64,000 nucleotides of DNA from the IMG/VR virus record IMGVR_UViG_3300044878_000205, positions 12,589 to 76,588 of that record. One strand, written 5' to 3'. This document shows, piece by piece, positions 1,929 through 57,985 of the stretch (positions are counted from its first letter, which is position 1; the number at the start of each line of letters is the position of its first letter). Source of the DNA: a virus (Duplodnaviria; Caudoviricetes). The notes under the pieces are model-generated. The model ran no database searches and had not been told where the DNA came from. It saw only the letters and a program-made list of their open reading frames with translations. A program made the position numbers and the translations under genes.

Positions 1929-1964
1929 CCCGGACAGGCCCGGTCACCCCTCACACAGCCCCGG

Positions 1965-1984
1965 CCCGCACAGCGGGTTTTTTT
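1965..1984 (+). terminator. Intrinsic terminator-like hairpin
   Basis: cccgc-aca-gcggg followed by T7. Confidence 0.6.
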
Positions 1985-2002
1985 ACGTCTGGAGAAACAT
2001 GC

Positions 2003-8498: not shown

Positions 8499-8518
8499 GC
8501 GAATTAGCGAATTAGCTA
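8499..8518. repeat. parS-like 8-bp tandem repeat
   Basis: gcgaattagcgaattagcta; same motif as the arrays flanking parA. Confidence 0.6.
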
Positions 8519-8821: not shown

Positions 8822-8886
8822 TTTGGATAGGGCTAGTCCCGACTTTACACCTGGTGTAAAGATGGACTTTTGAAAGGAGTCGTCGC

Positions 8887-9378
8887 ATGAGTGTCCTCTA
8901 TACCCTGCCGCTAATTGACGGTCCGCTGACGTTGACCCTGGACGGTGACGCGTTGGCCGCCTTGAACCGCTATCGGCAGCTTTTGGTCTGGTCGGTCTCT
9001 CCCTGGCTTGGCCCACCGGGCGAGCCGGTGCATGAGGGATTGATCGAGGCAATGACTACGCTGGCCGATGCGATGTCGAGGTTGTCCAAGGATGCGCGCC
9101 GTGTGCCCGCTGATCCCACGCAAGGAGCCCCCGCCCGGCCATCCGTATTGATTAATGGCGTCGAGTACGTGCCCCGCGCCGAGGTGCCGGAGCTGACCGA
9201 CGAACGCCTGCAGCGCGCCCTGGGCGAGCTGGTGGCCATCCAGTATTTCCGCGAGGACCACAAGGCGGTTCGCCAAGCCTGGGACGCGCTCAAGGCGCTG
9301 GCCCCCGAGTTGGCCGAGCTGGCCGCCCGCGACTCGCAGGCCGCGTATTATCGAATCCACGGCACTCCCGACGACTGA
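8887..9378 (+). CDS. Hypothetical protein, unit-2 specific
   Basis: aaggag RBS, 163-aa ORF. Confidence 0.65.
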   Translation: MSVLYTLPLIDGPLTLTLDGDALAALNRYRQLLVWSVSPWLGPPGEPVHEGLIEAMTTLADAMSRLSKDARRVPADPTQGAPARPSVLINGVEYVPRAEVPELTDERLQRALGELVAIQYFREDHKAVRQAWDALKALAPELAELAARDSQAAYYRIHGTPDD

Positions 9379-9392
9379 AAGGAACCCCCGCC

Positions 9393-9635
9393 ATGCCGAC
9401 CTATCACGACCGCTACGCCGCCCGCCTGCGGGCCTTTGTCTCAACGTGGTCCGGCCACAACATGGCCCATATCGCCTACCTGTCCGGGCGCAAGGCGCGC
9501 TCCCAGGGCCGTTCGCGGGGCTGGTCGTATGCTGGTGTCCTGACCTATCCGGCGCAGCGCCTGGCCCGCCTTGGTTATGTCGATGAGGCGCGCGGCCTGC
9601 CGGACCGGCTGGAGCGTGAGCGGTGGCAGGATTGA
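9393..9635 (+). CDS. Hypothetical protein (cassette with shared leader)
   Basis: Preceded by gaaaggaacccccgccATG. Confidence 0.65.
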   Translation: MPTYHDRYAARLRAFVSTWSGHNMAHIAYLSGRKARSQGRSRGWSYAGVLTYPAQRLARLGYVDEARGLPDRLERERWQD

Positions 9636-9644
9636 GCCCCGCGC

Positions 9645-9672
9645 GTTACGAGTAACGGCGTTTATGTCAAAT
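9645..9672 (+). other. XerC/XerD dif-like recombination site
   Basis: gttacgagtaa-cggcgt-ttatgtcaaat: 11-6-11 layout, right arm 10/11 to the XerD arm TTATGTTAAAT. Confidence 0.75.
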
Positions 9673-9684
9673 CGCACGGCACAC

Positions 9685-9711
9685 AAGGCTACCAAAGGGT
9701 GGCCTTTTTTT
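9685..9711 (+). terminator. Intrinsic terminator
   Basis: aaggctacc-aaag-ggtggcctt + T-run. Confidence 0.65.
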
Positions 9712-9808
9712 GTGCCCGCCGTTACCACTTTGCGGTAAAATGGACTACCGTTTTAGCGTGTTCTGGTTTTAGAGCGCGTCACCCCACACCCCGAAAAGGA
9801 GATCCCGC

Positions 9809-10162
9809 ATGACCCTGCTGACCCCGATAATTCGCAAAGACACCCCGGACGCGGAGTACCGCTTTTTTGTCTACTGCCCCAACGACGCAGACTTCACCTA
9901 CTACCGCAGCGCAGAGGACCGCGACAAGGACGCTGACCGGGTGATCCAGTCCTATCTCGATGATGGCTGGGATGAAATGGTCGAACAGGTGGTGGCTGGG
10001 GAAATGACCCACTTCTGCGGGCAGGTCGGTCGCGAAGATCGACCCGCCGAGAGCGAGCTGGATGAAGAGCAGTGCGACGGCACCGGCAAGCATTGGGGCG
10101 AGTGGGATTACACCTGCAATTACGATCTGCTGCCGTTGGCAGAGCTAGAGGTAGCGGCATGA
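9809..10162 (+). CDS. Acidic hypothetical phage protein, unit-2 specific
   Basis: aaggag RBS; stop overlaps next start. Confidence 0.7.
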   Translation: MTLLTPIIRKDTPDAEYRFFVYCPNDADFTYYRSAEDRDKDADRVIQSYLDDGWDEMVEQVVAGEMTHFCGQVGREDRPAESELDEEQCDGTGKHWGEWDYTCNYDLLPLAELEVAA

Positions 10163-10518
10163 GCATCGCCGTGGATATTGACGCCCAGGTGAGCCTGCTG
10201 CTGGAGCGCCTGGACAACACCGCGACCGATGCCCAGCTGCTGGTCGGGTTGTGCGCCCAGGCGCCGCTGGTACGGGAGGTGGCCGCCGCCTGCCGGCAGA
10301 CCGCCGCCTTTACCCGATCCGCCGCGCAGTTCGCGGCCTTCCAGGTCGAACTGGAAGCGGAGCATGCCGAGGACGAGCGCCTGCTCGCGGCCTGGCTGCA
10401 CTTTCTGGATCGCCTCATCAGTGCCCCGACTCGCTTGCACATGATCGGCTCGGTGCGCCTGTGCTTGCCGCTGGTGGCCCACTACCTGCCGGAGGTCGGC
10501 GATGGCGACCCTCGCTGA
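10159..10518 (+). CDS. Hypothetical protein, unit-2 specific
   Basis: ATGA overlap with previous gene; start reassigned. Confidence 0.65.
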   Translation: MSIAVDIDAQVSLLLERLDNTATDAQLLVGLCAQAPLVREVAAACRQTAAFTRSAAQFAAFQVELEAEHAEDERLLAAWLHFLDRLISAPTRLHMIGSVRLCLPLVAHYLPEVGDGDPR

Positions 10519-10678
10519 AATTCGCGACCTGCTGCAGCGCGGCGAAACCGTGAGTCTGCAGCGCCGTTACGTGGCGCGCGTGCTGGAAGGCCTGGCCGCC
10601 TCGGCGCAGGGCACCGAGCAATACCGCGTGACCCCGCGGCCGGGTCGCATGGCCGACCTGGTCCTGGAGCGAAAATGA
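10502..10678 (+). CDS. Small hypothetical protein (58 aa, not in ORF track)
   Basis: ggagg RBS; MATLAEIRDLLQRGE...LVLERK; stop overlaps ATG 10675. Confidence 0.55.
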   Translation: MATLAEIRDLLQRGETVSLQRRYVARVLEGLAASAQGTEQYRVTPRPGRMADLVLERK

Positions 10679-11431: not shown

Positions 11432-11683
11432 ATGATTGGAAAGGCCTTGGATGAGGATGCGTTGCGGCTGCTGGTGAGCCAGCAGGCGGTGCGCGAGTGC
11501 AAGGTGGCCCGGCAACGGCAGGCCCCGCAGCGCTGGACCCTGGAGGTGCGCTTGGGCGGGTCGCAGGCGCGCTGGATACCGGTGCGCTCGCGGCGTGAAC
11601 CGGTGCGAACCTGGGCCAGCCTGGAGACCCTGAGCCGCTTTGCCGTGGCGGTCGGCCTGCAGGAGTTTGTCGTGGAGCTGTGA
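11432..11683 (+). CDS. Small hypothetical protein (RSRREPVRTWASL type)
   Basis: gaggg RBS; homolog at 49478-49729. Confidence 0.7.
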   Translation: MIGKALDEDALRLLVSQQAVRECKVARQRQAPQRWTLEVRLGGSQARWIPVRSRREPVRTWASLETLSRFAVAVGLQEFVVEL

Positions 11684-11698
11684 CCGGTCACATGCGCA

Positions 11699-17864: not shown

Positions 17865-17923
17865 GCGGGCGCCTTGTGCGTCACGGCCTCGCTTTGCCTG
17901 AAATCCGTCCAAGGAGGCTTTCC

Positions 17924-19213
17924 GTGCCGAAAACCCTGCAGGTCGCGCTGTCCGATGCGGCCATCAAAAAGCATGCGGCTGACCCTGCTGTTCGCGAGCT
18001 CAACGACCCGCGGCACCCCTTGCGCTTTCGCTACCGGCTCAAGGATCGCACTCAGGGCAGTTGGCATGTGGTGCGTCGTGGTCAATGGAAGAAGGCCGGC
18101 AACTGGCCGGAAATCAACGCCCGGACCATGCTCGACAACCTACCAGCGGTGTTGTCGCGCCTGCAGGTTGATCCGGCGGCGGTGGCCACGGTCGGTGCCT
18201 GGAGTAGTGTCGGCCAGTTGCTTTCCTGGTACGCCGAACGGGTCCAAGTCGGGCGCACCTTGTCCAAGCCGCGGCAAAGCACCGTGCTCTCGGCGATCCG
18301 CAGGCAACTGGTACCGCGCCTGGGTGATCTGCCCTTGGCCGACCTCAATAAGACCAGCCTGGACGAGCGCCTGTACCTGCCCCTACAAGCCGAAGCCAGC
18401 CTGGCGCATGTCCGCGCGGTGTTCGCCATCCTCAAGTTGGCCTGTCGTCGGGCCGTGGCCATGGACCGTCTGCCGACCGATCCGCTGGCTGGGGTGTCGT
18501 TTGGGCAGTTCAATAAAACCAACATCAAACCCAAGGGTGCGCGTCTGCGACATACCGCGGTACCGGCGCTGCTGGCTCATTGGGCGGCGTCCTATGTCAC
18601 CGCACCGCGCCACGTGACCTTTGCCGTGCTGATGTTGGCCCATGGCACCCGCCTCAATGAAACCCGTTTGGCCCGCTGGCAGGACGTCGACCTGGTCAAT
18701 GCCGAGTGGTTTATCCCGGCGCGGGTGACCAAGGGTGGCCGAGACCATGTCCTGCCGCTGACCGTCCAGGCGTTGGCCTTCCTTCAACAACATAAACGTC
18801 TTCAACAGGGGCGTGGTTATGTTGGGGCCTTTCTCTTTCCCTCGACCACCCGATCCGGCCAGCCCCTGAGTCGTGCTCAAGCCTTTGAATTGTTCACCTG
18901 GTTAGGCCAAGGCGAATGGACCAGTCACGACCTGCGCAAATTGGCCAGAACCACGTGGGCCGAGTTGGGTGTGGATTCGGTGGTCGGTCGCTTGTTGCTC
19001 AATCAGGCCCTGCCCACCCTCGAAGCCACCTATGTGCAAACCACTGCCCTGGTGCGCAAGCGTGAGGCCCTGGAGCGCTGGCACGCCTGGCTCGATGAGC
19101 GCGGGTTTGCCGCCCTGCACGGTGCGACCCCGGCAAGACCGGTCGCCACGGCCACCCCCGTTCAGCCCGCGTCCGCCGTGGCCTGCGCGGCCTTTTCCCA
19201 ACCTAACGTATAA
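17924..19213 (+). CDS. Tyrosine recombinase / integrase
   Basis: HGTRLNE (R), TKGG (K), HDLRK (HxxR), LLNQ, ATY (Y); GTG start after aaggagg. Confidence 0.9.
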   Translation: MPKTLQVALSDAAIKKHAADPAVRELNDPRHPLRFRYRLKDRTQGSWHVVRRGQWKKAGNWPEINARTMLDNLPAVLSRLQVDPAAVATVGAWSSVGQLLSWYAERVQVGRTLSKPRQSTVLSAIRRQLVPRLGDLPLADLNKTSLDERLYLPLQAEASLAHVRAVFAILKLACRRAVAMDRLPTDPLAGVSFGQFNKTNIKPKGARLRHTAVPALLAHWAASYVTAPRHVTFAVLMLAHGTRLNETRLARWQDVDLVNAEWFIPARVTKGGRDHVLPLTVQALAFLQQHKRLQQGRGYVGAFLFPSTTRSGQPLSRAQAFELFTWLGQGEWTSHDLRKLARTTWAELGVDSVVGRLLLNQALPTLEATYVQTTALVRKREALERWHAWLDERGFAALHGATPARPVATATPVQPASAVACAAFSQPNV

Positions 19214-19590: not shown

Positions 19591-19946
19591 ACATGGGGCC
19601 GACCAATGAGGAACGCAGCCCCGAGGCGATCCGCAAGGCTGAGCAGCGCGAGCGGGATGCCGAAGCCGGCTTCGAGGTGGTGCCGCTGCGCCTAGGCCCC
19701 GTGGAGCTGGCCATGCTGCGCAAGGGTCAGCGCGCCCGCGGGGGTGATGAGCCGTACACCGCGGTCGAGTACTTGGCCACCTTGCTGCGCCGCGACCATG
19801 CCTGGCTCCAGCAACAGCAGGGGCTGGTCGCGGGGCGGATCTGCGGGCAGTGTCGTAAGCCGCTGCCGCAAGGCTGTGGTGGTTTCTGGATCAAGGAGGT
19901 CGCCGTCTGCGAACGGGCGCAACTGGAACGCGCCATGCAGTTGTGA
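19587..19946 (+). CDS. Hypothetical protein with C-terminal Cys cluster
   Basis: CGQCRKPLPQGCGG; homolog at 57477. Confidence 0.7.
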   Translation: MNMGPTNEERSPEAIRKAEQRERDAEAGFEVVPLRLGPVELAMLRKGQRARGGDEPYTAVEYLATLLRRDHAWLQQQQGLVAGRICGQCRKPLPQGCGGFWIKEVAVCERAQLERAMQL

Positions 19947-19966
19947 CATGTCACAACGCTAAAAGA

Positions 19967-39980: not shown

Positions 39981-42359
39981 ATGACCGATATCACGGCGCT
40001 GGAGGCTTACGCGGGTACGCTGTCGGAGGCGGCGCAGTTATCAATGGGCGCGGCCCTACTGCAACATCAATTCGTCCATGGCGGAGTTGATGAGGTCATC
40101 CAGACAGAATCAGGGCCCCTGCCATCGCTGGCCAAATGGCGCGTCGACTTGGCGACCATTGAAACGGCGCTGGCCAACCCGAATGTCGGGCCGGGCATGG
40201 TCGGTTGGAAGCGCAGTGCGTTGTCTGATTCGATTAAAACAATCGGCCAGATGCTGTCGGCCCAGGCCTATAACGTCTGGGAGCACGCGAACCTCATCAT
40301 TAGCAAGCCCACATCGGACCACCGCACCTGGGACTGGGCGCCCGCTATCGTGGCCGCCTGGAATGCAACGCCGATTGGCGGCTCCCTTGTTATTCCGATG
40401 GGGGTACATATTGGTTCGGCCGTTACCCTGACAGACAAGGCGGTCAATCTGTACTGCATGGGTCCGATCACGGTCGCCGATGGTAATTTTACGGCCCTGT
40501 ACTTCGACGGCACGGCCAATGTGACCGAGTACCCTGGCACCATCCTGACCGGCATTGCCGGTGGCGATACGAAGCTGAATTTTATCCCTGGAATGGCGCC
40601 TGCGCTTAACCCGACCGACTACTACTTGGTCATCTACTCGCTTGAGGCCAACGTCAACCGGGTCAACGAGACGTACTACATCCCTTACAGCAAGCGGGAG
40701 ACTCACGGACTCAGCCACTATGACTGGTCGCTCCACGATCCAATCCTGTACACCTATGCTGATCTGTCGGGTGTCACCTTGCGGTTCATCAAGAAGGCCG
40801 CCAGGACCAAGATCGTCGGCCTGACGCTGCAGGCGGACGCCAGCACAAACCGCTCTGCGCGCGACCTTCTGCGCACCCGCTGCAAGAGTTGCGTTGACTT
40901 CGAGGGTCTGCACATCAACAGCGCCCTGGCCGATCGCGCTGGGTTTGGCTTCGAAATCTACGAGTGTTTTGATTTCGTGCTCAACTCGCCGCGGGTATCC
41001 GGCTACAACGTAAGCGGGGTGGACTCGTACAAGATCAGAAGTTTCATGTCGGCGCACCTGGTCTTTAACGACTACATTGATGCCACTGATGCTGACCCTG
41101 TCTCGCCCAATAACAAAACAGAGCGCGCCTACGCCTCTATGTACAGCAACATGATCACCTTCAACAATTGCTACTTGAATGGGATCGATGAGCACTACGG
41201 CAGTCGATACGTGATTAACGGTGGCAGCCTGTCCCATCGCGGTATCGGGTTTGCAGGGCGAGACGTGACGATCAACGGGACGAAGTTTACCGGCCCTGGC
41301 GCGCTGTTCCAGCCCCGCGATGATTCGCCGTCTTGTCACGGCACGCTGCTCATCAATAACGTTGAGCTCGACGCGGTTAGCCAGTTGATCCAGGGTGAAA
41401 CAGGCATCATCACGGACCCGCTGGGGCGCACCACGCCGTTCAAAATGTTCGACCGGATACTTGTCGATGGAGTGGTAGTAAAAGGTGGTCTTCAGTCTTG
41501 GGAGAACATTATTTCGTTCCGCGGCATCCGCAACGCAACAACCTTCACTTCATCCAAGACCACATTGATTGATGTGCGCAACTTGAAGGTCTACAGCGAG
41601 CGGACCAATGTCAACCACAGCATCATGCAGTTCGCGAGCATCTGGGTCGAAACGGTTAACGCAGAAAACTGGGAGATCGCTGATAGCGCGGTGGCGTACC
41701 GGGGAGACATTCGATACTTGGGTCCGGCCTACGATGCGCTCAACATCGGCGAGCTGAAAGTTGCCAACAGCCGGGTGACTGTTTACGGGATAAGGAACAC
41801 GGCCAAGTTCACCATGCGCGGCGGATCTCTGGCCGGTAGCGGTGAGAGCCTTCTGGTGGAGGGGGGCTTTGGTGCCGTGGCGGTATCGCTGAAAGGGGTC
41901 GAGCTGAACAAGCCCCTGGCAGAGTCGGTGCCAGTGGCCGGAGTCAACCCCACTTGGGATATCGTCGATTGCACGATAAATGTTGCCCCTAGCAACTTGA
42001 CTGGGCGAATTGCGCGAGGTCTTCGCAATAGCATAGCTCTCGGCGTGACCATTCCTGGAGCGCTGGTGGGTAAGCTGCGGATCTACGAGAACCCCGCAAT
42101 GTTTTCGCCTACCACGATCACGGGTAGCGCGTCGTGGACGATTCCCGCTATCGCGTCGGGTGCGTCATTGCCTAACAACTTTACCCTGGCAGGTGTCGCG
42201 TTTGGCGATCAAGTCGATGTTGCCATATACGCCCCCTCCGTTTCGGCAACGGCTCAAGTCACCACGGCCGACACGATTGCCGTGGTGATCAACAACAACT
42301 CTGGGACTTCGGTGACGCTTGGGGCTCAGACGCTACGGTTCACGGTAAGAAAGCTCTAA
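39981..42359 (+). CDS. Tailspike / receptor-binding protein, different allele from unit 1
   Basis: First ~60 aa homologous to 2003; rest unrelated and beta-rich; WDWAPAI motif. Confidence 0.75.
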   Translation: MTDITALEAYAGTLSEAAQLSMGAALLQHQFVHGGVDEVIQTESGPLPSLAKWRVDLATIETALANPNVGPGMVGWKRSALSDSIKTIGQMLSAQAYNVWEHANLIISKPTSDHRTWDWAPAIVAAWNATPIGGSLVIPMGVHIGSAVTLTDKAVNLYCMGPITVADGNFTALYFDGTANVTEYPGTILTGIAGGDTKLNFIPGMAPALNPTDYYLVIYSLEANVNRVNETYYIPYSKRETHGLSHYDWSLHDPILYTYADLSGVTLRFIKKAARTKIVGLTLQADASTNRSARDLLRTRCKSCVDFEGLHINSALADRAGFGFEIYECFDFVLNSPRVSGYNVSGVDSYKIRSFMSAHLVFNDYIDATDADPVSPNNKTERAYASMYSNMITFNNCYLNGIDEHYGSRYVINGGSLSHRGIGFAGRDVTINGTKFTGPGALFQPRDDSPSCHGTLLINNVELDAVSQLIQGETGIITDPLGRTTPFKMFDRILVDGVVVKGGLQSWENIISFRGIRNATTFTSSKTTLIDVRNLKVYSERTNVNHSIMQFASIWVETVNAENWEIADSAVAYRGDIRYLGPAYDALNIGELKVANSRVTVYGIRNTAKFTMRGGSLAGSGESLLVEGGFGAVAVSLKGVELNKPLAESVPVAGVNPTWDIVDCTINVAPSNLTGRIARGLRNSIALGVTIPGALVGKLRIYENPAMFSPTTITGSASWTIPAIASGASLPNNFTLAGVAFGDQVDVAIYAPSVSATAQVTTADTIAVVINNNSGTSVTLGAQTLRFTVRKL

Positions 42360-42756: not shown

Positions 42757-43791
42757 TCAGGCTGCTTGATATTGTCGGATTCGCTGAAACAGGGATTCCG
42801 CAGAGACTGATTTTGGCGGGGCCAAAAGTGCGCCGAGCCGGTAACGCTTGATGATGGCCTGGGCGACCAGGGGCGCTGCTATGCCGATCAGCGTACCAAT
42901 GATCAGGTGAGCTGCCGGCGTCTGCACCCCGAGCAACTTGCTAAGCGCGACTCGCGCACCGCTCCCCGCAAGAATATGCATCAGATAAATCGTCATTGAC
43001 GACGCTCCTACATACATGAGCCACTTTATGTTTATTCGGCTGAGGCACATGGATACTGCAACAATGAAGAGTATTGAAACTGTTGCGAGAATTAAAGATT
43101 CAATCCCTTCTGATTCAGAAGACAACGCCATGACGTCATGAAAAATATATTGCCCGGCTATAAACAGGGCGCCAAAAGCAATTGCAAGTGCTGCGTACGT
43201 CCTCTCGAATATTGATTTTATATCGTCGAAGCAAATCCCAAGGATGAAGAAAAATGTATTCCCCAGGATGAATTCAGTGATCATATTTGAAGGCATAGCA
43301 CCCTTGATGGTGTATAGAACAGCAAAGGCAGTTAGTATCAATAAACTCCGAGACTTATCAAATAGCGTGTACACCAATGAGCTGGTGACGAATACCAAAA
43401 ATAATGCATACAAGAACCAGAACTGAGCCCTTGGCTCCCACGCGAACGACAGAACCTCGCCGAATGTCACGCTGCCATTTGTGTATTTTGACAGGACGCT
43501 TTCCATGGAACCCTGCAGTAGAGACCATATAACGAATGGGTAAAGTATCGTGTCGACCTTGTTAATTATCAGGCCTGTTGCGCCGCGGCTTTTGAGGGAG
43601 TTGTAAAAAAACAGGCCTGACAGGAAAAAGAAAAGAGGCATGTGGAAGCTGTAAATAATGCTGTCCACCAGCTGGAATATGCTTTCATCCATCTGCATCC
43701 CAGCACTGTGTACGCCGCGCGCAACATGCCCGTACACGACAAGGATTATTCCTATTGCCTTTGCGTAGTCTACCCAGGAATTTCTTTCCAT
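42757..43791 (-). CDS. Acyltransferase family 3
   Basis: WVDYAKAIGIILVVYGH, YSFHMPLFFFLSG, WFLYALF, SMTIYLMH; low GC. Confidence 0.9.
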   Translation of the reverse strand: MERNSWVDYAKAIGIILVVYGHVARGVHSAGMQMDESIFQLVDSIIYSFHMPLFFFLSGLFFYNSLKSRGATGLIINKVDTILYPFVIWSLLQGSMESVLSKYTNGSVTFGEVLSFAWEPRAQFWFLYALFLVFVTSSLVYTLFDKSRSLLILTAFAVLYTIKGAMPSNMITEFILGNTFFFILGICFDDIKSIFERTYAALAIAFGALFIAGQYIFHDVMALSSESEGIESLILATVSILFIVAVSMCLSRINIKWLMYVGASSMTIYLMHILAGSGARVALSKLLGVQTPAAHLIIGTLIGIAAPLVAQAIIKRYRLGALLAPPKSVSAESLFQRIRQYQAA

Positions 43792-45358: not shown

Positions 45359-45414
45359 GGTCGGAGTTTAGTGGACGGTCCCCTTCTGTGCAAGCCCGTT
45401 GCTGGGGAGCAACC

Positions 45415-45513
45415 ATGCTGCATTTCGACCGTTTGCCGCGGCTACATCCGCGGTCCGTCCGCACCACCCGCACCCTTGCCGCCGCTGTCGGCGTCGTAAG
45501 GGGCTCGCTATGA
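45415..45513 (+). CDS. Tap-like leader peptide (32 aa)
   Basis: MLHFDRLPRLHPRSVRTTRTLAAAVGVVRGSL; ATGA overlap with repA preserved despite +21 nt. Confidence 0.7.
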   Translation: MLHFDRLPRLHPRSVRTTRTLAAAVGVVRGSL

Positions 45514-46403
45514 GCCTGCGTGTGGTCAAGTCGTTTCTCCCGGCGGGCTCGCCGGCCAGCGCGGTGTATGCCGCCCTCGATGCCGCCCTCGATGCGCCTG
45601 CCGCCGCCCCGCAACAGCCCCCCTTTAAGAAAGTCCTGCCGCCGGTCGGCCATATGGCCGTGCGTCGTCCGCGCCGTTTGTCGGCCAAGCAGGCGTCGAC
45701 CTTCCTCGGTGAAGCGGTCAAGCGCATCAAGGCCGAGGCCAGCGACCGCACCGGTAAATACCTGCGCTGCCTGGACACCGTGCACCAAGCCGGCGGCCGC
45801 ACCCGCGCCGAGCGCTGGCAGGCCCTGGCAGCGATTGCCGAGCCGCTGTTGGCCCGTCTGGACATTGCCACCGGCTGCCTGGGCTACCTGGACCAACACG
45901 GCCAGTTCCGCCTCAACCGGCAGAACGGCTTGGCCGAGGATGCCGGCATCAGCCCGACCCGCCTGTGCCGGCTGCTGAAGGCCCTGGAGAAAGCCAAGTA
46001 CACCCTGCGCAAGATCAAGCGCCTGTATCGCAACGGTAAGCGCTGGGTCTGCCGCATCACCATCTATGTGCGCCCGCGCTTCTTTATCGACCTCGGCCTG
46101 GGCTTCCTGCACGCCGCCTCGCGCACCGCCAAGGCCAAGGCCTACCTGAAGAAGCGCCGCCAGGCGCAGGCCGTGCAGCAGCAAGCGCTGCTCGATGACG
46201 TGGCCGCCGCGCATGACCGGCGCATGAGCCACCGCAACGCCGAGGCCGCCCGCGCCGAGACGCGCAAGGCCGCCGAGAACACCTCGCGCATCCAAGCGCT
46301 GCAGCACAAGGCCGGTGTCCTCTCGGACCTGGCCAAAGCCCACCCGGGCAAGGGCCATGCCGAGTTGATGGCCCTCTACCACCAGCTCCACCCCGCCTCC
46401 TGA
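45510..46403 (+). CDS. repA: IncFII RepA-like replication initiator
   Basis: Homolog of 6868-7761. Confidence 0.65.
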   Translation: MSLRVVKSFLPAGSPASAVYAALDAALDAPAAAPQQPPFKKVLPPVGHMAVRRPRRLSAKQASTFLGEAVKRIKAEASDRTGKYLRCLDTVHQAGGRTRAERWQALAAIAEPLLARLDIATGCLGYLDQHGQFRLNRQNGLAEDAGISPTRLCRLLKALEKAKYTLRKIKRLYRNGKRWVCRITIYVRPRFFIDLGLGFLHAASRTAKAKAYLKKRRQAQAVQQQALLDDVAAAHDRRMSHRNAEAARAETRKAAENTSRIQALQHKAGVLSDLAKAHPGKGHAELMALYHQLHPAS

Positions 46404-46570
46404 GCCCCGCTCAACCCGCCCCGCTACCGGCGGTGCGTTCGCGTGTCCGCTCGTCTGTCAGCCCCGCACAACCCCCTGTCCTACGCCGTTTACGGTCCCC
46501 GCCACGCCAGTTTTCTCACGCCAATTCCCCTGCAGCCCCGTCCTTTTCCCGCGCGCCCGTCCAGGCCCCT

Positions 46571-46739
46571 AAAGCCTTTGGAATAACTGCAATTTTAGAG
46601 GTCGAGTGGTACCACCCAAGGGTTAGAAACAGAGCCTTTCGGTTCAGTGGAGTGCTCTAGATCGGGACCTGACTCGATGCCATAGAAAGAATGCCTGCCC
46701 ACTTCGCGCCTGGAGGCGCGGGGCAAGGGCACCCCTCGG
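46571..46739. other. Candidate replication origin
   Basis: Conserved with 7930-8097. Confidence 0.45.
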
Positions 46740-47262
46740 CGTCGGTGCCGCCGCCGTTCCGTCAGTGAGGCGCCCTCCAGTTGCTGTGGGCCGGTCGGCG
46801 AGCGATTCCGACCGCCACACCGCGTGCCGTCCCTTCGCGCCTTCACGCGCCGCCTGCGGCCAGTCAGTCGCGCAAGCGCTCCAGTGATCAATGAGCGGGG
46901 TGGGCTTGCCGATTTTTCCCAGCCTGAAGCGCCGCGTGGCCTGTTCGGGCGTCGTCGGGTCTTCAGGTAAGGCGTGGCGTCAGGTAAGGCGGCGCGTGGT
47001 GCAGGCGCGCTGTGGTGGGCTCGGGCGTCAGGGCTGGTGCGCGCTCGGCCGGCGCGAAGGGACGGCGGGCGGTGGCGGTGGTCGCTGGATCTGCCGCCCG
47101 TGGCGAAATGTCTGAAAGCCTTGCGCGGCATGGCTTGCCGACCGTTTTTAACGTGAGAAGTTTCATAGGCGAATTAGCGAATTAGCTATTGAGATAAGCC
47201 GGTCGCTATGTAAAATGCCTCGTCCCCGGGCATTCCTGCCTGGCCCAGATGGAGCTGTGCCG

Positions 47263-47490
47263 TTGAGTTGCCAAGCCTTACACACCCAAATGAAGGAACA
47301 TGCCCGGTGTCTGTCCCTGCCTCAAGTGGTCCGGTCGATTGAGAACCTGGGCGGCGGGAACTTGCCGGCGATTGAGCTGATCTTGCGCAGCCTGCTGCTC
47401 GATGTGTACGCCGAGCGTCAGGGCCTCGAGGCCGCCCGGCGGCTGATGGCGCAGGTGGGCATTGCCCAGCCGGGCGTGTTGCTGGCATAA
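47263..47490 (+). CDS. Hypothetical protein
   Basis: Homolog of 8594-8821. Confidence 0.6.
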   Translation: MSCQALHTQMKEHARCLSLPQVVRSIENLGGGNLPAIELILRSLLLDVYAERQGLEAARRLMAQVGIAQPGVLLA

Positions 47491-47529
47491 CCTGAACTCC
47501 TCCCGGTGCGACTGAAAGGAACCCCCGCC

Positions 47530-47754
47530 ATGCCGATGATCGACAGTGACACTTTCAAAGCCGAACTGGATGCCGCGAACGCTGCCCGCGAAGCGCTGGT
47601 AGACCATCAGATTTTGCCGAAGCCGTATGATCGTGAGTGGCATCAAGCCGAAGGCGTGCGTCTGCTGGAGGCCTATCAGGCCGCCACCAATACGCTGGCC
47701 CATCAAATGAAAAGAGTGGTCGAGCTGGCCGAGACCGTGGCCCTGATTGGGTAG
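47530..47754 (+). CDS. Hypothetical protein (cassette 1)
   Basis: Shared gaaaggaacccccgccATG leader. Confidence 0.7.
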   Translation: MPMIDSDTFKAELDAANAAREALVDHQILPKPYDREWHQAEGVRLLEAYQAATNTLAHQMKRVVELAETVALIG

Positions 47755-47796
47755 GCCCGTCGCGTTACCCCTAACGAACTGAAAGGAACCCCCGCC

Positions 47797-48045
47797 ATGT
47801 TCGACGAGTCCCCGCCGCTCACCGATGCCCAGGTCGCGGCCTTGGCCAAGCCCGGCGAAAGCTGGGCGGCCGCCCGCGACCGCGCCGCGCGCTTGTACCG
47901 CTGCGTGGTCGAGTGCTGGCCGTGCCCCGTCTGCAACGCCGGCGGCGTGCAGCCGTATGGCGGCTGGATTGAGGATGAGTTCAACGGCTGCGGCACTTGC
48001 GCCGCGATGTGGCGACATTTGCCCAAGCGCCCGAATAGTTTTTGA
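47797..48045 (+). CDS. Cys-rich hypothetical protein (cassette 2)
   Basis: Shared leader; CxxC motifs. Confidence 0.7.
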   Translation: MFDESPPLTDAQVAALAKPGESWAAARDRAARLYRCVVECWPCPVCNAGGVQPYGGWIEDEFNGCGTCAAMWRHLPKRPNSF

Positions 48046-48064
48046 CGAGAAAGGAACCCCCGCC

Positions 48065-48316
48065 ATGGAAAAAATAGTCCCGATTGACATTGATGAAAGT
48101 TGCGTCGAGCTGGTGCAGCGCTTCCAGGCCCTCGACCGCCAGGTCAACGACATGATCTTTGGCCCGCCGGGCTACGATCATGCGGTTGTGGAGGCGTTGC
48201 AGACTGAGCGCGCCAATGTCAGCAACCTGGCCATGTTTCACCTCGGCGTGGCGTTCCGGACGTGTGGCTATTTCGATGGACCGGGCGAAGCCGCCTCGAG
48301 GGAAATCGAAGAGTAG
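48065..48316 (+). CDS. Hypothetical protein (cassette 3)
   Basis: Shared leader; start reassigned to 48065. Confidence 0.7.
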   Translation: MEKIVPIDIDESCVELVQRFQALDRQVNDMIFGPPGYDHAVVEALQTERANVSNLAMFHLGVAFRTCGYFDGPGEAASREIEE

Positions 48317-48321
48317 GCCGC

Positions 48322-48349
48322 GTTACCCATAACGCCGTTTATGTGAAAT
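48322..48349 (+). other. XerC/XerD dif-like recombination site
   Basis: gttacccataa-cgccgt-ttatgtgaaat; 11-6-11, left arm ends CATAA as in dif, right arm 10/11 to TTATGTTAAAT. Confidence 0.8.
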
Positions 48350-48484
48350 CGGCCCCCCCCTTTCGACCAAAGGTGGGGGCCTTTTTTTGTGCTCGCCGTT
48401 ACCAGAATGCTATAAAATGGACTACCGTTTTATAGTGTTCTGGTTTTACGCAGAGCCCGCCACTCACTCGAAAGGAAACCGCCC

Positions 48485-48778
48485 GTGCCCTGTTACACGC
48501 TCTACGACGAAGACCGAAACCCGCGAGGCCATCTGTGTGGCGACCTGGGCGCGCATTGCGGTGAGTGCGGTGACCTCGGCACGAACCTGTGCGATTACCC
48601 GGTGGGTCAAGGCAAGACCTGCGACCGCCTGCTGTGCGATTACCACGCCCAACTGATCGCGCCGAACCTGCATTACTGCAGCCCGCATGCAGTCGAGTGG
48701 CGCGCGTTTCGCGATGCCGGCGGCGTGCGCCAGGAGCTGGAGAACGTGATTGCCTTTAAGGAGGAAAAGAAGAAATGA
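48485..48778 (+). CDS. Cys/His-rich hypothetical protein, unit-3 specific
   Basis: aaagga RBS; LCDYP...TCDRLLC..H...HYC..H. Confidence 0.7.
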   Translation: MPCYTLYDEDRNPRGHLCGDLGAHCGECGDLGTNLCDYPVGQGKTCDRLLCDYHAQLIAPNLHYCSPHAVEWRAFRDAGGVRQELENVIAFKEEKKK

Positions 48779-48981
48779 ACAACCGTCACGGCCTGGACGT
48801 GGACCGGTTCCGCCGCAAGGTGCTGCGCCTGGCGCGTGACCTGGAGCAGTCCACCCCGGTCGAATTCGCCCGGGCTTGTGCACGTCTGTCGCGTGCGGCT
48901 GACGCGGCGCTGTCGGCTCAGGCAGAGTACGCCCGCCCAGGGCCGGCCCTCGACGATTTAGACCTGCAGGAGGAGCGCTAA
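48775..48981 (+). CDS. Hypothetical protein
   Basis: Homolog of 10675. Confidence 0.7.
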   Translation: MNNRHGLDVDRFRRKVLRLARDLEQSTPVEFARACARLSRAADAALSAQAEYARPGPALDDLDLQEER

Positions 48982-49379
48982 TGCCCCGTTATTGGATTCG
49001 CTACACCGTGACCAACGCGCGCCGCAGCTCGGAGCACACGCGCACCCTCGACACCGAGTTTCCGCTGGAATACGACAGCGATATCGCGGCGCTGCAAAAG
49101 ACCTTGGAGGCCGCCCGCGGCCCCGGCAGCACCGTGACCCTGACCACCTGGCGCGAACTCAAGGGCGAGTCGCGCTACGTCGATCCGTGGTCGACCCTCA
49201 GCAACCCCTTGGCCAATCCGCAACAGCCGGTGGGCTGGCTGTACACCCTGCACCTGGATGACGCGCGCACCGTCACCCGCTTCAGCTGGACCCCGGAGAA
49301 CCCGTTCGGTGAGCTCGACGCCGGCCAGGCACTGACGGTGTCGCGGCTGCGGCTGGACCTGGACGAGGCGGCGCCGTGA
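48981..49379 (+). CDS. Hypothetical protein
   Basis: Homolog of 10881. Confidence 0.75.
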   Translation: MPRYWIRYTVTNARRSSEHTRTLDTEFPLEYDSDIAALQKTLEAARGPGSTVTLTTWRELKGESRYVDPWSTLSNPLANPQQPVGWLYTLHLDDARTVTRFSWTPENPFGELDAGQALTVSRLRLDLDEAAP

Positions 49380-49477
49380 GACATGCGCAAACCATCCCCC
49401 TCGGTGGGGCAGTTGGCCGCGCCGCGCCGCTGTGGCAAGGTGCGTGCCAGTCTCACGGATTTGAAACGAGGGTATGC

Positions 49478-49729
49478 ATGATTGGGAAGTCACTGGATGA
49501 GGACGCATTGCGCCTGCTGCTGAGCCAGAACGCGGTGCGCGAGTGCAAGGTGGCCCGGCAAAAGCAGGCGCCGCAGCGCTGGACCCTGGAGGTGCGCCTG
49601 GGCGGATCGCAGGCGCGCTGGATACCGCTGCGCTCACGCCGTGAGCCGGTGCGCACCTGGGCCAGCCTGGACACCCTGGAGCGCTTCACCAATAGCGTGG
49701 GGATTCTGGCGTTTCTCGTGGAGTCGTGA
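49478..49729 (+). CDS. Small hypothetical protein
   Basis: Homolog of 11432. Confidence 0.7.
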   Translation: MIGKSLDEDALRLLLSQNAVRECKVARQKQAPQRWTLEVRLGGSQARWIPLRSRREPVRTWASLDTLERFTNSVGILAFLVES

Positions 49730-49744
49730 CCGGTCACACGCGCA

Positions 49745-49776
49745 CAAAAAAGCCCCGAACCAGTCGGGGCTTTTTG
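49745..49776. terminator. Bidirectional terminator
   Basis: Same as 11699-11730. Confidence 0.85.
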
Positions 49777-49793
49777 TTGCTGGAGGAAAGGTC

Positions 49794-49937
49794 CTAGCGG
49801 TTCCAGCGCGCCAGGGCCAAGGCTTGTTTGGTCTTGGGTGAGCAGGTGGCGAGGAAGTAGGCCATCTGCCGCGCGGAAATCTGCAGCAGTTCGTTCAGCG
49901 GTTTAGCGCGCAGGGTGATATATTCGTGCTCTGACAT
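49794..49937 (-). CDS. Small conserved protein (47 aa)
   Basis: Homolog of 11748-11891. Confidence 0.65.
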   Translation of the reverse strand: MSEHEYITLRAKPLNELLQISARQMAYFLATCSPKTKQALALARWNR

Positions 49938-50012: not shown

Positions 50013-50306
50013 TCAGTTGCTGGGTTCCCAGCCTTTCTTTTTCATGTAATCGGCCATCGCTTCTTTCAGCGCATCCACTTGCGCAATGTCGTTGCTCGCA
50101 CAAAAGGTGCGGAAGTTGCGGCGGTATTCGTGCGCGACCTTGAAGCCCAGGTCGACCAGTTTGTTATCGGCCGGCACCTTGGTGTTGTTGCCGACGCTGG
50201 CCGTTTCGGCGGCAGACTGGGGCGGCTCGCCCAACGTGCTGCGGCGGGGTGGCTTGGCCACTTTGACGGCGGGGGTTTCGGGGGTCTTGGCGGTCTTGGT
50301 CGGCAT
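50013..50306 (-). CDS. ParG-like RHH protein
   Basis: Homolog of 11967-12263. Confidence 0.7.
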   Translation of the reverse strand: MPTKTAKTPETPAVKVAKPPRRSTLGEPPQSAAETASVGNNTKVPADNKLVDLGFKVAHEYRRNFRTFCASNDIAQVDALKEAMADYMKKKGWEPSN

Positions 50307-50384: not shown

Positions 50385-51038
50385 TCAGGCCGCGGTCAGC
50401 CGCTCGAAGTGGTCGACGGCGGACTGGATGACTTCCAGGGCCTTGGCGCGCGGCCCCTTGTACGGGGTTTCGATAATCGAACGGCCTTCGTTCATGGCGT
50501 TGGCATAGGCGTCCTGGTGCTGGATCGCGCCGTCGAGCACGGCAAAGCGGGTCTTGCCCAGGTATTCACGTGCCGCGTCAATCGGCGCCTTGCGCGCGGT
50601 GGCCTTGCACAAGGCGTAGACGATGCGCTCCACCGGAATGCCGTGTTGATCGACCAGGCTGTTGGCCAGGGCGACCTGGGGTTCGAGGTCATCCAGGGTC
50701 AAGCCGGTAGGCAGAATCAGCAGCTGACAGGCTTTGGCGATCCGCACGGTTTCTTCGGTGGCGTTGGCCGGGCCATCGAAAATGAACAGGTCGGCATCCC
50801 CCGCGCGGCTGAGGGCGGTGGCGACGTTGCCATACAGTTGCACGGGCACATCGGGGGTGATGTTGGCGAACAGCCGGCGGCGTTGCCAGTTGGTGGCGGT
50901 GGCTTGTTTGGTGTCGAGGTCGATGATCTTCACCGCCCAGCTGGCCTGGGTGTACGCGGTGGCGAGGGCGCGGGCGAGGGTCGATTTCCACGCGCCGCCT
51001 TTCTGAGAAATGCAGCCAATGCCGTAGGGGTTTTGCAT
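50385..51038 (-). CDS. parA: Type Ib ParA ATPase
   Basis: SQKGGAWKST; homolog of 12342-12995. Confidence 0.9.
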   Translation of the reverse strand: MQNPYGIGCISQKGGAWKSTLARALATAYTQASWAVKIIDLDTKQATATNWQRRRLFANITPDVPVQLYGNVATALSRAGDADLFIFDGPANATEETVRIAKACQLLILPTGLTLDDLEPQVALANSLVDQHGIPVERIVYALCKATARKAPIDAAREYLGKTRFAVLDGAIQHQDAYANAMNEGRSIIETPYKGPRAKALEVIQSAVDHFERLTAA

Positions 51039-55903: not shown

Positions 55904-55986
55904 AGCGCTAATTCGCTAAATCGCTAATCAGGCGCAACCCGCGTCACGGGCTCGCTCGGCCTGAAGAACGTCCAAGGAGAGTGTTT

Positions 55987-57273
55987 ATGGCGAAAACCCT
56001 GCAGGTCGCACTGTCCGATGCGGCCATTAAGAAGCACGCCGCTGACCCCGCGGTGCGCGAGCTCAACGACCCGCGGCACCCGCTGCGCTTTCGTTACTGG
56101 AAGGACCGCAGTCGCGGCAGTTGGCACCTGGTGCGCAATGGTCAGTGGAAGAAGGCCGGCAATTGGCCGGAGATCAGCGCCCGGACCATGCTCGACAACC
56201 TGCCCCTGGTGCTGTCGCGCCTGCAGCGTGATCCAGTGGCGGTGGCCACGGTCGGGGCCTGGAGCAATGTCGGTCAATTGCTGGCCTGGTACGCCGAACG
56301 GGTCCAGGCCAGCCGCACCTTGTCCAAGCCGCGCCAGGTCACCGTGCTCTCGGCGATCCGCCGCCAGTTGCTCCCGCGCCTGGGCGATCTGCCGTTGGCC
56401 GACCTCAACAAGACCAGCGTCGACGAGCGCCTGTACCTGCCGTTGCAGGCCGAAGCCAGCCTGGCCCATGTCCGTGCCGTGTTCGCCATCCTCAAGTTGG
56501 CCTGCAAGCGCGCCGTGGCCCTGGACCGTCTGCCGGCCGATCCCCTATCTGGGGTGGTGTTCGGTCAGTTCAATAAAACCGTCATCAAACCCAAGGGCGC
56601 GCGGCTGCGGCATGCCGCGGTACCGGCGCTGCTGGCTGATTGGGTGGCCTTGGAATCCACCGCGTGGCGCCCCGTGGCCTTTGCCGTGCTGATGCTGGCC
56701 CATGGCACGCGGATCAATGAAACCCGTTTGGCCCGTTGGCAGGACATCGACCTGGTCAATGCCGAGTGGTTCATCCCGGCGCGGGTGACCAAGGGCGGCC
56801 GTGATCATGTCCTGCCGCTGACCGCGCAGGCCCTGGCCTTCCTTAATCAATACGGCAAGCGGCAGTTCATCCGCGGTTATACCGGGGCCTTCCTCTTTCC
56901 CTCGACCACCCGTCCTGGCCGGCCGATCAGCCGTGCTCAGGCCTTTGAGTTGTTCACCGGGTTAGGCCGAGGCGAATGGACCAGTCACGACCTGCGCAAA
57001 CTGGCCCGGACCACCTGGGCCGAGTTGGGGGTGGATTCGGTGGTCGGCCGGCTGCTGCTCAATCAGGCCCTGCCGACCCTCGAAGCGACCTATGTGCAAA
57101 CCACCGCCCTGGTGCGCAAGCGGGAGGCCCTGGAGCGCTGGCATGCCTGGCTCGATGAGCGCGGGTTTGCCGACCTGCACGGTGCGACCCCGGCAAGACC
57201 GGCCGCCAGTGCCACCCCCGTCCAGCCCGCGGCCGCTCTGGCCTGCGCGGCCTTTTCCCAACCTAACGTATAA
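55987..57273 (+). CDS. Tyrosine recombinase / integrase
   Basis: Homolog of 17924; same catalytic motifs. Confidence 0.9.
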   Translation: MAKTLQVALSDAAIKKHAADPAVRELNDPRHPLRFRYWKDRSRGSWHLVRNGQWKKAGNWPEISARTMLDNLPLVLSRLQRDPVAVATVGAWSNVGQLLAWYAERVQASRTLSKPRQVTVLSAIRRQLLPRLGDLPLADLNKTSVDERLYLPLQAEASLAHVRAVFAILKLACKRAVALDRLPADPLSGVVFGQFNKTVIKPKGARLRHAAVPALLADWVALESTAWRPVAFAVLMLAHGTRINETRLARWQDIDLVNAEWFIPARVTKGGRDHVLPLTAQALAFLNQYGKRQFIRGYTGAFLFPSTTRPGRPISRAQAFELFTGLGRGEWTSHDLRKLARTTWAELGVDSVVGRLLLNQALPTLEATYVQTTALVRKREALERWHAWLDERGFADLHGATPARPAASATPVQPAAALACAAFSQPNV

Positions 57274-57480: not shown

Positions 57481-57833
57481 CCGTGGCCCTTCCTGAAGAC
57501 CGCAGCCCAGAGGCGATCCGCAAAGAGGAGCAGCGCCTGCGGGATGCTGCTGCCGGGATCGAGGTGCTGTCGCTGCGCCTGGGCCCGGTGGAGCTGGCCA
57601 TGCTCCGTGAAGGCCAGCAGGCCCGCGGCGGTGATGAGCCGTACAGCGCCGTCGAGTACCTGGCCACCTTGCTCCGTCGTGACCATGCCTGGCTCCAGCA
57701 GCAACAGGGTTTGGCTGCCGCGCGGATCTGCGCGCAGTGCCGTAAGCCGCTGCCGCAGGGTTGTGGCGGTTTCTGGCGGAAGGAGGTCGCCGTCTGCGAG
57801 CGGGCGCAGTTGGAGCGCGCCATGCAGTTGTGA
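57477..57833 (+). CDS. Hypothetical protein
   Basis: Homolog of 19587. Confidence 0.7.
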   Translation: MTVALPEDRSPEAIRKEEQRLRDAAAGIEVLSLRLGPVELAMLREGQQARGGDEPYSAVEYLATLLRRDHAWLQQQQGLAAARICAQCRKPLPQGCGGFWRKEVAVCERAQLERAMQL

Positions 57834-57985
57834 CATGTCACAGCGGTAAAGATTGACAAAAGAGCTGTTAGACAGATTTACTGTTTTTTTACAGGAATGC
57901 TGTTTACAGGGTTGGCCGTTTACTCTAGGATTTGCTCCATCGTGGTGTTCTTGCGGACGCAGCGGTGACCTGTGATGCTCCTCTT

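What the first reader, a model, noticed from the sequence alone, without database searches (positions are those of the whole stretch)
47509..48349. Array of unrelated small ORFs sharing an identical leader, ending at the dif-like site
Seen: gaaaggaacccccgccATG precedes three non-homologous ORFs in unit 3 (47530, 47797, 48065) and one in unit 2 (9393). The 9372-9399 and 47509-47536 copies match over 28 bp, and degenerate versions precede 8887, 9809 and 48485. The ORF content of this slot is entirely different between units. Inference: a gene-cassette system in which the leader serves as both RBS and recombination handle, allowing cassettes to be gained, lost or shuffled. The cargo could be anti-defence or host-takeover proteins.
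Basis: partly seen in the sequence, partly recalled or inferred. Interest (0 to 1): 0.8.

Follow-up and report, generated by a model that had tools for sequence, protein, structure and literature searches.

The report
Fixed-length gene cassettes stacked against dif
Pseudomonas phage-plasmids and plasmids carry a row of small unrelated genes in units of about 270 bases that begin with a shared leader and end at a dif-like recombination site, and these units are likely swapped and added there with the help of the host's own chromosome-untangling enzymes, which would be an integron-like way of trading genes.

Summary
In detail: four exact leader copies against 0.02 expected. The contig holds two related ~38-kb phage-plasmids. 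The same slot recurs on Pseudomonas phage-plasmids, conjugative plasmid pA506 and a 3.8-kb plasmid. Gene content and order vary; 29 of 29 left breakpoints lie within 7 nt of the leader, and right breakpoints lie at the dif-like site.

New here is a fixed unit length. In 78 of 101 such sites the leader lies 241-289 bp upstream, with further peaks at two and three units. In 27 of the 78 no start codon follows it, and shorter ORFs are offset by longer 5' regions. Turnover rises towards dif, and inner junctions carry truncated dif arms.

Best reading: a leader crossover plus host Xer exchange at dif swaps and adds ~270-bp units. Catalysis is inferred and the length ruler is unexplained. Against it: no single crossover base, the arm is also a genome-wide palindrome, and 13 of 15 further genome sites lack the leader. 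No cassette circles were seen. Cargo function is unknown; anti-defence is not shown.

The parts
45399..46403 (+). Replication initiator-like gene of unit 3 (backbone left of the slot)
   Evidence: weak RepA hit NF040977 E 3e-4; tblastn relatives on 32 Pseudomonas/Azotobacter plasmids
47189..47216 (+). Predicted sigma-70 promoter upstream of the array
   Evidence: only promoter-like site in 46400-49900, 10 of 12 matches; same region present in unit 2 and two relatives
47215..47490 (+). Conserved small ORF before the slot (start uncertain), shared by both units
   Evidence: close relatives diverge from the window at 47495
47514..47532 (+). Leader 1 (RBS, start codon, left handle)
47530..47754 (+). 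Cassette ORF A, 74 aa, predicted two-helix hairpin; its 93%-identical orthologue is the last gene before a full dif site in L027
   Evidence: no family hit
47764..47776 (+). Truncated dif-like left arm / palindrome between ORF A and leader 2
   Evidence: not a notable RNA hairpin (z 0.37)
47781..47799 (+). Leader 2, 267 bp after leader 1
47797..48045 (+). Cassette ORF B, 82 aa, two CxxC motifs; its N-terminal stretch is shared with other cassette families
48049..48067 (+). Leader 3, 268 bp after leader 2 and 273 bp before dif
48065..48316 (+). Cassette ORF C, 83 aa; orthologues are terminal in L108 and internal in L117
48322..48349 (+). dif-like Xer site of unit 3 (11-6-11), right handle
48351..48388 (+). 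Predicted intrinsic terminator
   Evidence: -22.3 kcal/mol, z -3.3
48470..48778 (+). Degenerate leader and 97-aa ORF of a second variable slot right of dif (not fixed-length)
8872..9378 (+). Unit 2: degenerate leader and 163-aa ORF, likely two fused units (relic leader at 9120-9138; residues 85-159 match a stand-alone 78-aa cassette at 79%)
9377..9635 (+). Unit 2: exact leader and 80-aa cassette ORF, leader 268 bp before dif
9645..9672 (+). dif-like Xer site of unit 2 (central region differs from unit 3 at one base)
9685..9711 (+). Predicted terminator of unit 2
50385..51038 (-). ParA-like partition ATPase (plasmid lifestyle), with a small partner gene at 50013-50306
   Evidence: the unit-2 copy of the partner has a weak ribbon-helix-helix Pfam hit
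55981..57273 (+). Element-encoded tyrosine recombinase (copy at 17876-19213); no integron-integrase hit

Best explanation
The slot is a row of ~270-bp gene units, each starting at the shared leader, with the last one ending at a dif-like site, and units are likely exchanged between co-resident Pseudomonas plasmids and phage-plasmids by a crossover in the leader combined with a likely host-XerC/D exchange at dif. Shown: the architecture, the fixed period, breakpoints at the leader and at the dif site, rising turnover towards dif, and truncated dif arms at inner junctions. Inferred step 1: short-homology recombination at the 16-28-bp leader (variable crossover point) joins two circles, and exchange at their dif sites separates them, which swaps the leader-to-dif piece. 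Inferred step 2: an out-of-register crossover, or one between a dif arm and an inner arm, adds a unit next to dif and leaves the previous last gene one place further out, behind a truncated dif that could no longer be excised. Inferred step 3: the leader supplies RBS and start, and often the upstream gene's stop, so an incoming gene would be expressed at once from the upstream promoter and end at the terminator behind dif. The 241-289-bp length most likely reflects a distance needed to bring the two handles together, but this is the weakest step.
For: Left border: 29 of 29 orthologue pairs (of 56 pairs at 85% or more; 17 unscorable, 10 with the same upstream) with different upstream genes share only 0-7 nt before the leader. 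In 29 pairs with different next genes, identity ends 2-23 nt into the next leader. Right border: among 86 loci, 8 pairs share the upstream gene but not the backbone, 15 the reverse, and 1 both. L143/L171 are 100% identical up to the fourth spacer base, while L171/L153 are 99% identical from the spacer on. Ruler: the leader motif lies 241-289 bp before 78 of 101 sites (72 of 95 found by the dif pattern alone). There are 3 hits at 0-239 bp, none at 320-459, 53 at 500-599 and 27 at 780-879; the reverse-strand control gives 0.008 per 60 bp. In 27 of 78 there is no start codon. 5' length and ORF length compensate (rho -0.62, 36 families). Window periods are 267/268/273 and 248/257/268. Close relatives replace 915 bp by 386 or 371 bp, two units fewer. 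pA506 shows 255/549/851 and pHN2 269/533/749. 0 of 31 chromosomal dif loci show the motif. Polarity: shared sequence falls from 0.77 at -1215 to 0.12-0.21 in the last 540 bp, then is 0.91 at dif (13 backbone-sharing pairs). Scars: an arm precedes 34 of 121 leader genes against 0.004 background, at the same stop-to-arm spacing as terminal genes in the junctions where the gene has its own stop. L134 keeps arm, spacer and four bases of the XerD arm. A 3.8-kb circular contig with no recombinase hit among nine ORFs carries the site and a relic leader at 287 bp.
Against: No single crossover base is seen. The variable arm triplet tracks with upstream (7 of 9) and also with downstream (28 of 53; baseline 0.29). 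Inner arms mostly have other triplets (42 of 46 CCG/GCG/CCA/CCC) than terminal arms (81 of 89 GAA/CAA/GAG), so most are not simply terminal arms left behind. The same palindrome is scattered through these genomes, also inside structural genes (20, 11, 11 and 6 copies against 0.2-0.4 expected), so it may be a protein-binding site in its own right. 23 of 101 sites, and 13 of 15 further genome sites, have no leader at the expected distance. 45 of 75 leader-ascertained viral loci have no Xer-like site within 1.3 kb, so the sequence also occurs as an ordinary RBS. Close relatives leave the window at 47495, 19 nt before leader 1. About half of the breakpoint pairs come from one family (14 and 15 of 29). 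Xer activity was not tested.
Confidence: 0.55

Rival explanations
1. PeSL-type shuffling only: ordinary short-homology recombination between repeated leaders and arms moves the genes. The dif site is just one more conserved repeat at the edge, and unit size reflects selection for small genes.
For: Crossover points vary within the leader and first codons. No fixed crossover base in dif. Order reversals in 4 of 25 pairs. Precedent in T4-like phages (PMC2839356, passages read).
Against: It does not explain why the leader-to-dif distance stays at 241-289 bp when the ORF is shorter and the leader has no start codon. It does not explain why all 55 leader families are 62-101 aa against 24 of 42 control families, or why turnover is polarised to dif.
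Confidence: 0.2
2. The leader is the far end of an extended Xer site of the cer/psi kind, bound by an accessory protein about 270 bp from the XerC arm. The gene merely fills a spacer of constrained length, and arrays are relics of former sites.
For: The fixed distance is on the XerC side and start-less leaders are retained. cer has ~180 bp of accessory DNA bound by PepA and ArgR (PMC5357621, passages read). The motif is absent at chromosomal dif (0 of 31).
Against: No helical phasing of the distances (Rayleigh p 0.32-0.89). The range is 48 bp wide. 23 of 101 and 13 of 15 sites lack the motif, and L075 has a 166-aa last gene with the leader at 524 bp.
Confidence: 0.12
3. A true integron analogue: the element's own tyrosine recombinase excises and inserts circular cassettes at the palindrome.
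For: A tyrosine recombinase is conserved across these phage-plasmids. The palindrome is enriched in the elements and not in two host chromosomes (12 copies each, controls 21 and 37).
Against: The slot also occurs on a 3.8-kb contig with no recombinase hit. There is no integron-integrase hit and no attC-like hairpin. Crossover points vary. By eye, the enzyme has Asn-Gln where the family usually has a catalytic His (motif recalled, not aligned).
Confidence: 0.08
4. The leader is only a strong RBS reached by convergence or spread by gene conversion, and mosaic borders fall at gene ends by selection.
For: Single copies occur in unrelated GC-rich viral contigs (45 of 75 loci). In 51 of 104 junctions the upstream stop lies 12-19 nt before the next start, in or at the leader, as in translational coupling.
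Against: 27 of 78 terminal leaders have no start codon yet keep position and sequence. The period and the length compensation need a DNA-level cause.
Confidence: 0.05

Closest known systems
PeSL cassettes of T4-like phages (Arbiol et al. 2010, PMC2839356; passages read)
   Same: Repeated upstream elements ending in Shine-Dalgarno and ATG flank small ORFans; recombination between them deletes or moves ORFs, with crossovers between the promoter and the ATG.
   Different: PeSLs are promoter and stem-loop elements in lytic phages. Here the repeat is a 16-19-nt leader without promoter, the row ends at one dif-like site, units have a fixed length, and turnover is polarised. Mini-circles are shown for PeSL but not here.
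pdif modules of Acinetobacter plasmids (PMC6449649, passages read; PMC5790767, listing and start of abstract only)
   Same: 28-bp plasmid Xer sites (11-6-11, variable XerC arm and centre) border exchangeable accessory DNA; co-integrate formation and resolution is the proposed route.
   Different: pdif plasmids carry several intact sites flanking modules. Here there is one intact site per element, inner sites are truncated and in direct orientation, the left border is a translation leader, and units are ~270 bp.
IMEX arrays at Vibrio dif (CTX, VGJ, TLC; review PMC5357621, passages read)
   Same: Elements accumulate at a dif site through host Xer. XerC-only exchange (VGJ) and a divergent XerD arm (TLC) have precedent.
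   Different: IMEXs are kilobase elements entering the chromosome. These are single non-autonomous genes at a plasmid or prophage site, and no free form or attP was seen.
cer and psi plasmid resolution sites (PMC5357621, passages read)
   Same: Plasmid Xer site with a distant conserved element; its position on the XerC side in cer and psi is recalled.
   Different: cer accessory DNA is ~180 bp bound by PepA and ArgR. Here the distance is 241-289 bp, unphased, and filled by a variable gene.
Integrons (attI/attC/IntI; features recalled)
   Same: Promoterless small-gene cassettes, one upstream promoter, polarised turnover.
   Different: No IntI hit and no attC hairpin; the variable end is the promoter-distal end.

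Membership tests
Xer/dif-type site | 28 bp: 11-bp XerC arm, 6-bp centre, 11-bp XerD arm resembling host dif | tested here: met
   48322-48349 and 9645-9672; left arm shares its first five and last three bases with the dif-type site on Pseudomonas chromosomes, right arm differs from it at one base in each unit
Xer/dif-type site | Bound and recombined by XerC/XerD | not testable with these tools
   only indirect: homology breaks at the site
pdif module | Module flanked on both sides by intact pdif sites, several per plasmid | tested here: not met
   one intact site per unit; inner sites lack the XerD arm
PeSL-type cassette array | Repeated upstream element ending in SD and ATG at which gene borders fall | tested here: met
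   29 of 29 left breakpoints within 7 nt
PeSL-type cassette array | Repeat contains a sigma-70 promoter and a stem-loop | tested here: not met
   single promoter-like site upstream of the whole array; junction fold z 0.37
PeSL-type cassette array | Excised mini-circles | tested here: inconclusive
   no leader-to-leader joint or circle listed, but only assembled contigs were laid and the tables were cut
Integron | IntI integron integrase next to the array | tested here: not met
   the recombinase is ~7.6 kb away and hits only generic or phage integrase models
Integron | attC hairpin after each cassette | tested here: not met
   the one junction folded shows no notable fold; no Rfam match of note; attC layout recalled
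IMEX | Free form with an attP that integrates at dif and regenerates it | not testable with these tools
   architecture is compatible but no free unit was seen
cer/psi-type site | Accessory element at constrained distance on the XerC side | tested here: inconclusive
   distance constrained in 78 of 101 but unphased and often absent; protein binding not testable
Anti-defence gene cluster | Cargo matches known anti-defence proteins | tested here: inconclusive
   Lar-like hits below cut-off for two relatives' ORFs (28.5 against 28.6 bits, and 20.9 bits); none for the window's ORFs; no significant fold match

The most novel reading that the evidence does not exclude
A host-Xer-driven, integrase-free integron: ~270-bp single-gene units, measured by a molecular ruler between the leader and the XerC arm, are inserted at the dif site of Pseudomonas plasmids and phage-plasmids, locked in by loss of the XerD arm, and so form a chronological, shared library of small effector genes.
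Probability: 0.3. Interest if true: 0.9.

Novelty: new variant of a known kind. Interest (0 to 1): 0.74.

Why it matters
Where phages and plasmids get and swap their many small unknown genes is a long-standing question. This slot gives defined borders, a measurable unit length and an order, so the question becomes testable with two small plasmids and xerC/xerD/recA mutants. It links phage-plasmids, a conjugative plasmid and tiny plasmids through one shared gene pool, and it marks at least 55 small protein families, nearly all unannotated, as a ready screening set. A length ruler acting on unrelated genes would surprise specialists in Xer recombination and in phage mosaicism.

Tried and rejected
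Cargo function: Pfam, PHROGs and NCBIfam gave nothing for the window's three ORFs. ESM Atlas best scores were 0.82 and 0.80, chance level. ORF A has 8 homologues, all hypothetical or unnamed. PDB profile searches gave nothing below E 0.01. Models of ORF A (helical hairpin, pLDDT 89) and of a common relative family (three-helix bundle, pLDDT 90) had no Foldseek match at E 0.001 or better; best VIA Z was 8.4, which is generic for helical bundles.

My guess that the large upstream gene in relatives is ArdC was dropped: no Pfam hit, and the gene in that position on pA506 is annotated KlcB. A matS-like host terminus motif for the palindrome was rejected: two chromosomes have 12 scattered copies each, fewer than controls. 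Leader-terminator pairing: modest similarity (13.8 against 10.3 shuffled), no covariation, and a duplex weaker than the hairpin; not pursued. Helical phasing: none. Rfam: nothing of note.

The dimer: pHN2 repeats the same protein accessions twice, so it is a homodimer and says nothing on heterodimers. Whether the window's dimer is real could not be decided. The units share identical stretches up to 219 bp, and contigs cannot tell. No RNA holder was listed. Scripts had a too-strict filter and a slicing error; one search replaces them. Look-ups of earlier findings returned nothing. L317 showed no site in the stretch fetched.

Full report
Context. The window lies in a 76,588-bp contig with a 71-bp terminal overlap, made of two related ~38-kb units whose long aligned blocks are 80-92% identical. 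Each unit has head, contractile tail and lysis genes, a repressor, ParA, a tyrosine recombinase and a Rep-like gene, so each is a temperate phage-plasmid. Rep relatives are on 30 Pseudomonas and 2 Azotobacter plasmids. Run X16 holds a 37,011-nt contig that covers the backbone at about 96% and closes on itself, that is, a monomer. The window's array is present without differences in run X1 (47521-48683), which may be the source sample. Whether the dimer is a real co-integrate or an assembly join is open: the units share identical stretches up to 219 bp.

Observation. Confirmed. The 19-mer occurs four times against 0.02 expected, the 28-bp match is real, and the ORFs compared are unrelated. The row ends at an 11-6-11 site followed by a hairpin and U-run. 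One promoter-like site lies upstream. The site's left arm resembles the dif-type site found on many Pseudomonas chromosomes, in several single-contig genomes near 3.2-3.5 Mb.

Relatives. I scanned viral contigs for the leader (27 and 83 loci), and viral, metagenome and genome contigs for the dif pattern (56, 87 and 18 loci). After removing duplicates there were 131 sites. I set aside those whose centre does not begin with CG (chromosomal type and others) and one unrelated repeat class. A heuristic gene caller of my own found a gene abutting the site in 89; its stop lies within 12 nt of the arm, or in it, in 82. The slot occurs on phage-plasmids with other head and tail modules, on conjugative pA506 and on a 3.8-kb circular contig from P. 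fragi with no recombinase hit among nine ORFs scanned. Many families are terminal in one element and internal in another. Order is reversed in 4 of 25 family pairs seen together at least twice.

Borders. Of 56 orthologue pairs at 85% identity or more, 17 could not be scored, 10 had the same upstream and 29 a different one. In all 29, identity reaches only 0-7 nt upstream of the leader. In 29 pairs with different next genes, identity stops 2-23 nt into the next leader, and in 17 of them it runs unbroken over 52-60 nt before it. One family supplies about half of these pairs. The crossover point varies: a leader variant travels with the upstream gene in one family and with the downstream gene in another. 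On the right, among 86 loci, 8 pairs share the last gene but not the backbone, 15 the reverse, and 1 both. Spacer and XerD-arm variants track significantly only with the downstream side, but the arm triplet tracks with both sides. The border is therefore at the XerC arm or centre, not demonstrably at one base. In sequencing runs, contig ends and joints fall at 47495, 47511-47550, 47761-47797, 48062-48068 and 48307-48411 (tables cut). The 47495 joint lies 19 nt before leader 1, so the first unit's left border is looser.

The ruler. This is the main new result. In 78 of 101 sites with at least 330 bp upstream, the leader motif lies 241-289 bp before the arm (72 of 95 among those found by the dif pattern alone). 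There are 3 hits at 0-239 bp, none at 320-459, 53 at 500-599 and 27 at 780-879. In 27 of the 78 no start codon follows. In such units the leader is followed by 50-80 nt with a second SD, and by eye a -10-like hexamer, and then a shorter ORF. 5' length and ORF length compensate (rho -0.62, p 6e-5, one per family, n 36). All 55 leader families encode 62-101 aa, against 24 of 42 control families right of dif. The window obeys the period in both units: 267/268/273 and 248/257/268 bp. The 163-aa ORF at 8887 is likely two fused units, with a relic leader at 9120. Close relatives have 529 and 544 bp less in the slot. Records found by another route agree: pA506 255/549/851, pHN2 269/533/749. From the leader side, 30 of 75 loci have an Xer-like site within 1.3 kb, 28 of them at one, two or four units; the other 45 have none. 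Chromosomal dif shows the motif in 0 of 31. Against generality: only 2 of 15 further genome sites, most with a mismatch to the pattern, have the leader at that distance, and the distances show no helical phase.

Polarity and scars. In 13 pairs sharing backbone on both sides, shared sequence falls from 0.77 at -1215 to 0.12-0.21 in the last 540 bp and is 0.91 at dif. An arm-like motif precedes 34 of 121 leader genes and 12 of 183 others (background 0.004), and is followed by CGAAC or CGAAT in 31 of 46. ORF A is terminal in L027, while here it is followed by such an arm and leader 2. L134 keeps arm, centre and four XerD bases before a leader, and L176 a similar remnant. However, inner arms mostly differ from terminal ones in the central triplet. 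The palindrome is also enriched across four whole elements, including coding regions and a second, irregular row right of dif, but not in two host chromosomes. Mixed half-sites point to a protein-binding site rather than a hairpin (inference). The scar reading is therefore likely for some junctions only.

Mechanism. I commit to a two-handle exchange: a short-homology crossover in the leader, plus host Xer exchange at dif, swaps leader-to-dif pieces between co-resident circles. Out-of-register events add units at the dif end and strand truncated sites inside. XerC-only exchange and divergent XerD arms have precedent in IMEXs (PMC5357621). Catalysis is inferred, not shown, and the cause of the length window is not known. 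Rivals are pure PeSL-type shuffling (0.2), a cer/psi-like extended site (0.12), an element-encoded recombinase (0.08) and a mere RBS (0.05).

Cargo. Unknown. Among 87 representatives from relatives, Pfam found HTH, DUF551, DUF7706, DUF7673, zinc-ribbon, S24, HicA and two sub-threshold Lar-like hits. The window's ORFs have no family match, and ORF A has no significant fold match. Divergent paralogues sit in tandem (21-40% identity), as expected for separately acquired variants. Anti-defence is plausible but unsupported.

Literature. Ten searches listed no description of this Pseudomonas slot or of a fixed-length array at dif. I saw listings and abstract starts only, and the library lacks most subscription papers; the pA506 paper was seen only as a reference entry. 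I read passages only of PMC2839356, PMC5357621, PMC8708921, PMC6449649, PMC5304414 and bioRxiv 10.64898/2026.03.27.714766; the last two had no hit for dif or Xer terms. No supplements were read, and they could hold site lists. Integron features, sigma-factor consensus and the recombinase motif are recalled.

Verdict. A real, widespread cassette slot that works like PeSL shuffling joined to a pdif/IMEX-type border but passes the full membership test of neither. New variant of a known kind, interest 0.74, with a 0.3 chance of the bolder Xer-integron reading.

Noticed in passing
window 11680-11691, 19943-19954, 49726-49737, 57830-57841; L308-L313: A 12-bp palindrome related to the dif left arm overlaps stop codons here and is strongly enriched across whole relatives (20, 11, 11 copies against 0.2-0.3), also inside structural genes, but not in two host chromosomes; binding protein unknown.
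   Followed up: partly
whole contig (window is G000:C1:12589-76588): Circular heterodimer of two ~38-kb phage-plasmids whose dif centres differ at one base; real co-integrate or assembly join undecided.
   Followed up: partly
window 48470-48778 and 9795-10678; L309 right of dif: A second variable slot right of dif. In G001:C27 four genes there share their own palindrome-plus-SD leader at irregular spacing.
   Followed up: partly
window 55981-57273: The conserved tyrosine recombinase sits inside the rightward operon and, by eye, has Asn-Gln where a catalytic His is usual (motif recalled); its target is unknown.
   Followed up: no
window 3960-5105 (+) and 42757-43791 (-): Each unit carries a different acyltransferase (PF01757), in opposite orientations, next to a different tail or depolymerase-like gene (1895-3805, 39981-42359): a likely paired receptor-modification and receptor-binding module.
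   Followed up: no
window 47168-47188, 8497-8517 and 50376-50331: Short repeats beside the array promoter resemble repeats beside parA and its small partner gene, suggesting the partition protein also controls the array promoter (seen).
   Followed up: no
L038, L041, L051, L055, L063, L085, L157 and others (family F01, 33 members): The commonest terminal cassette family is highly diverged, has its own SD and likely promoter behind a start-less leader, and occurs in tandem at 21-35% identity; possibly an exclusion or immunity family.
   Followed up: partly
L316 4445-5011 (phage PARCL1pr): Same leader and inner palindrome, but the terminal site has a different left arm and a 7-bp centre; the leader lies about 540 bp (two units) upstream.
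   Followed up: partly
L318-L319 (pHN2, NZ_CP085886.1): A deposited 82-kb plasmid is a head-to-tail repeat of a 41-kb phage-plasmid of this family.
   Followed up: yes
window 47186-47216: The promoter's 3' part resembles an XerD arm preceded by an 8-bp gap, so it might double as a degenerate Xer site; judged by eye only.
   Followed up: no
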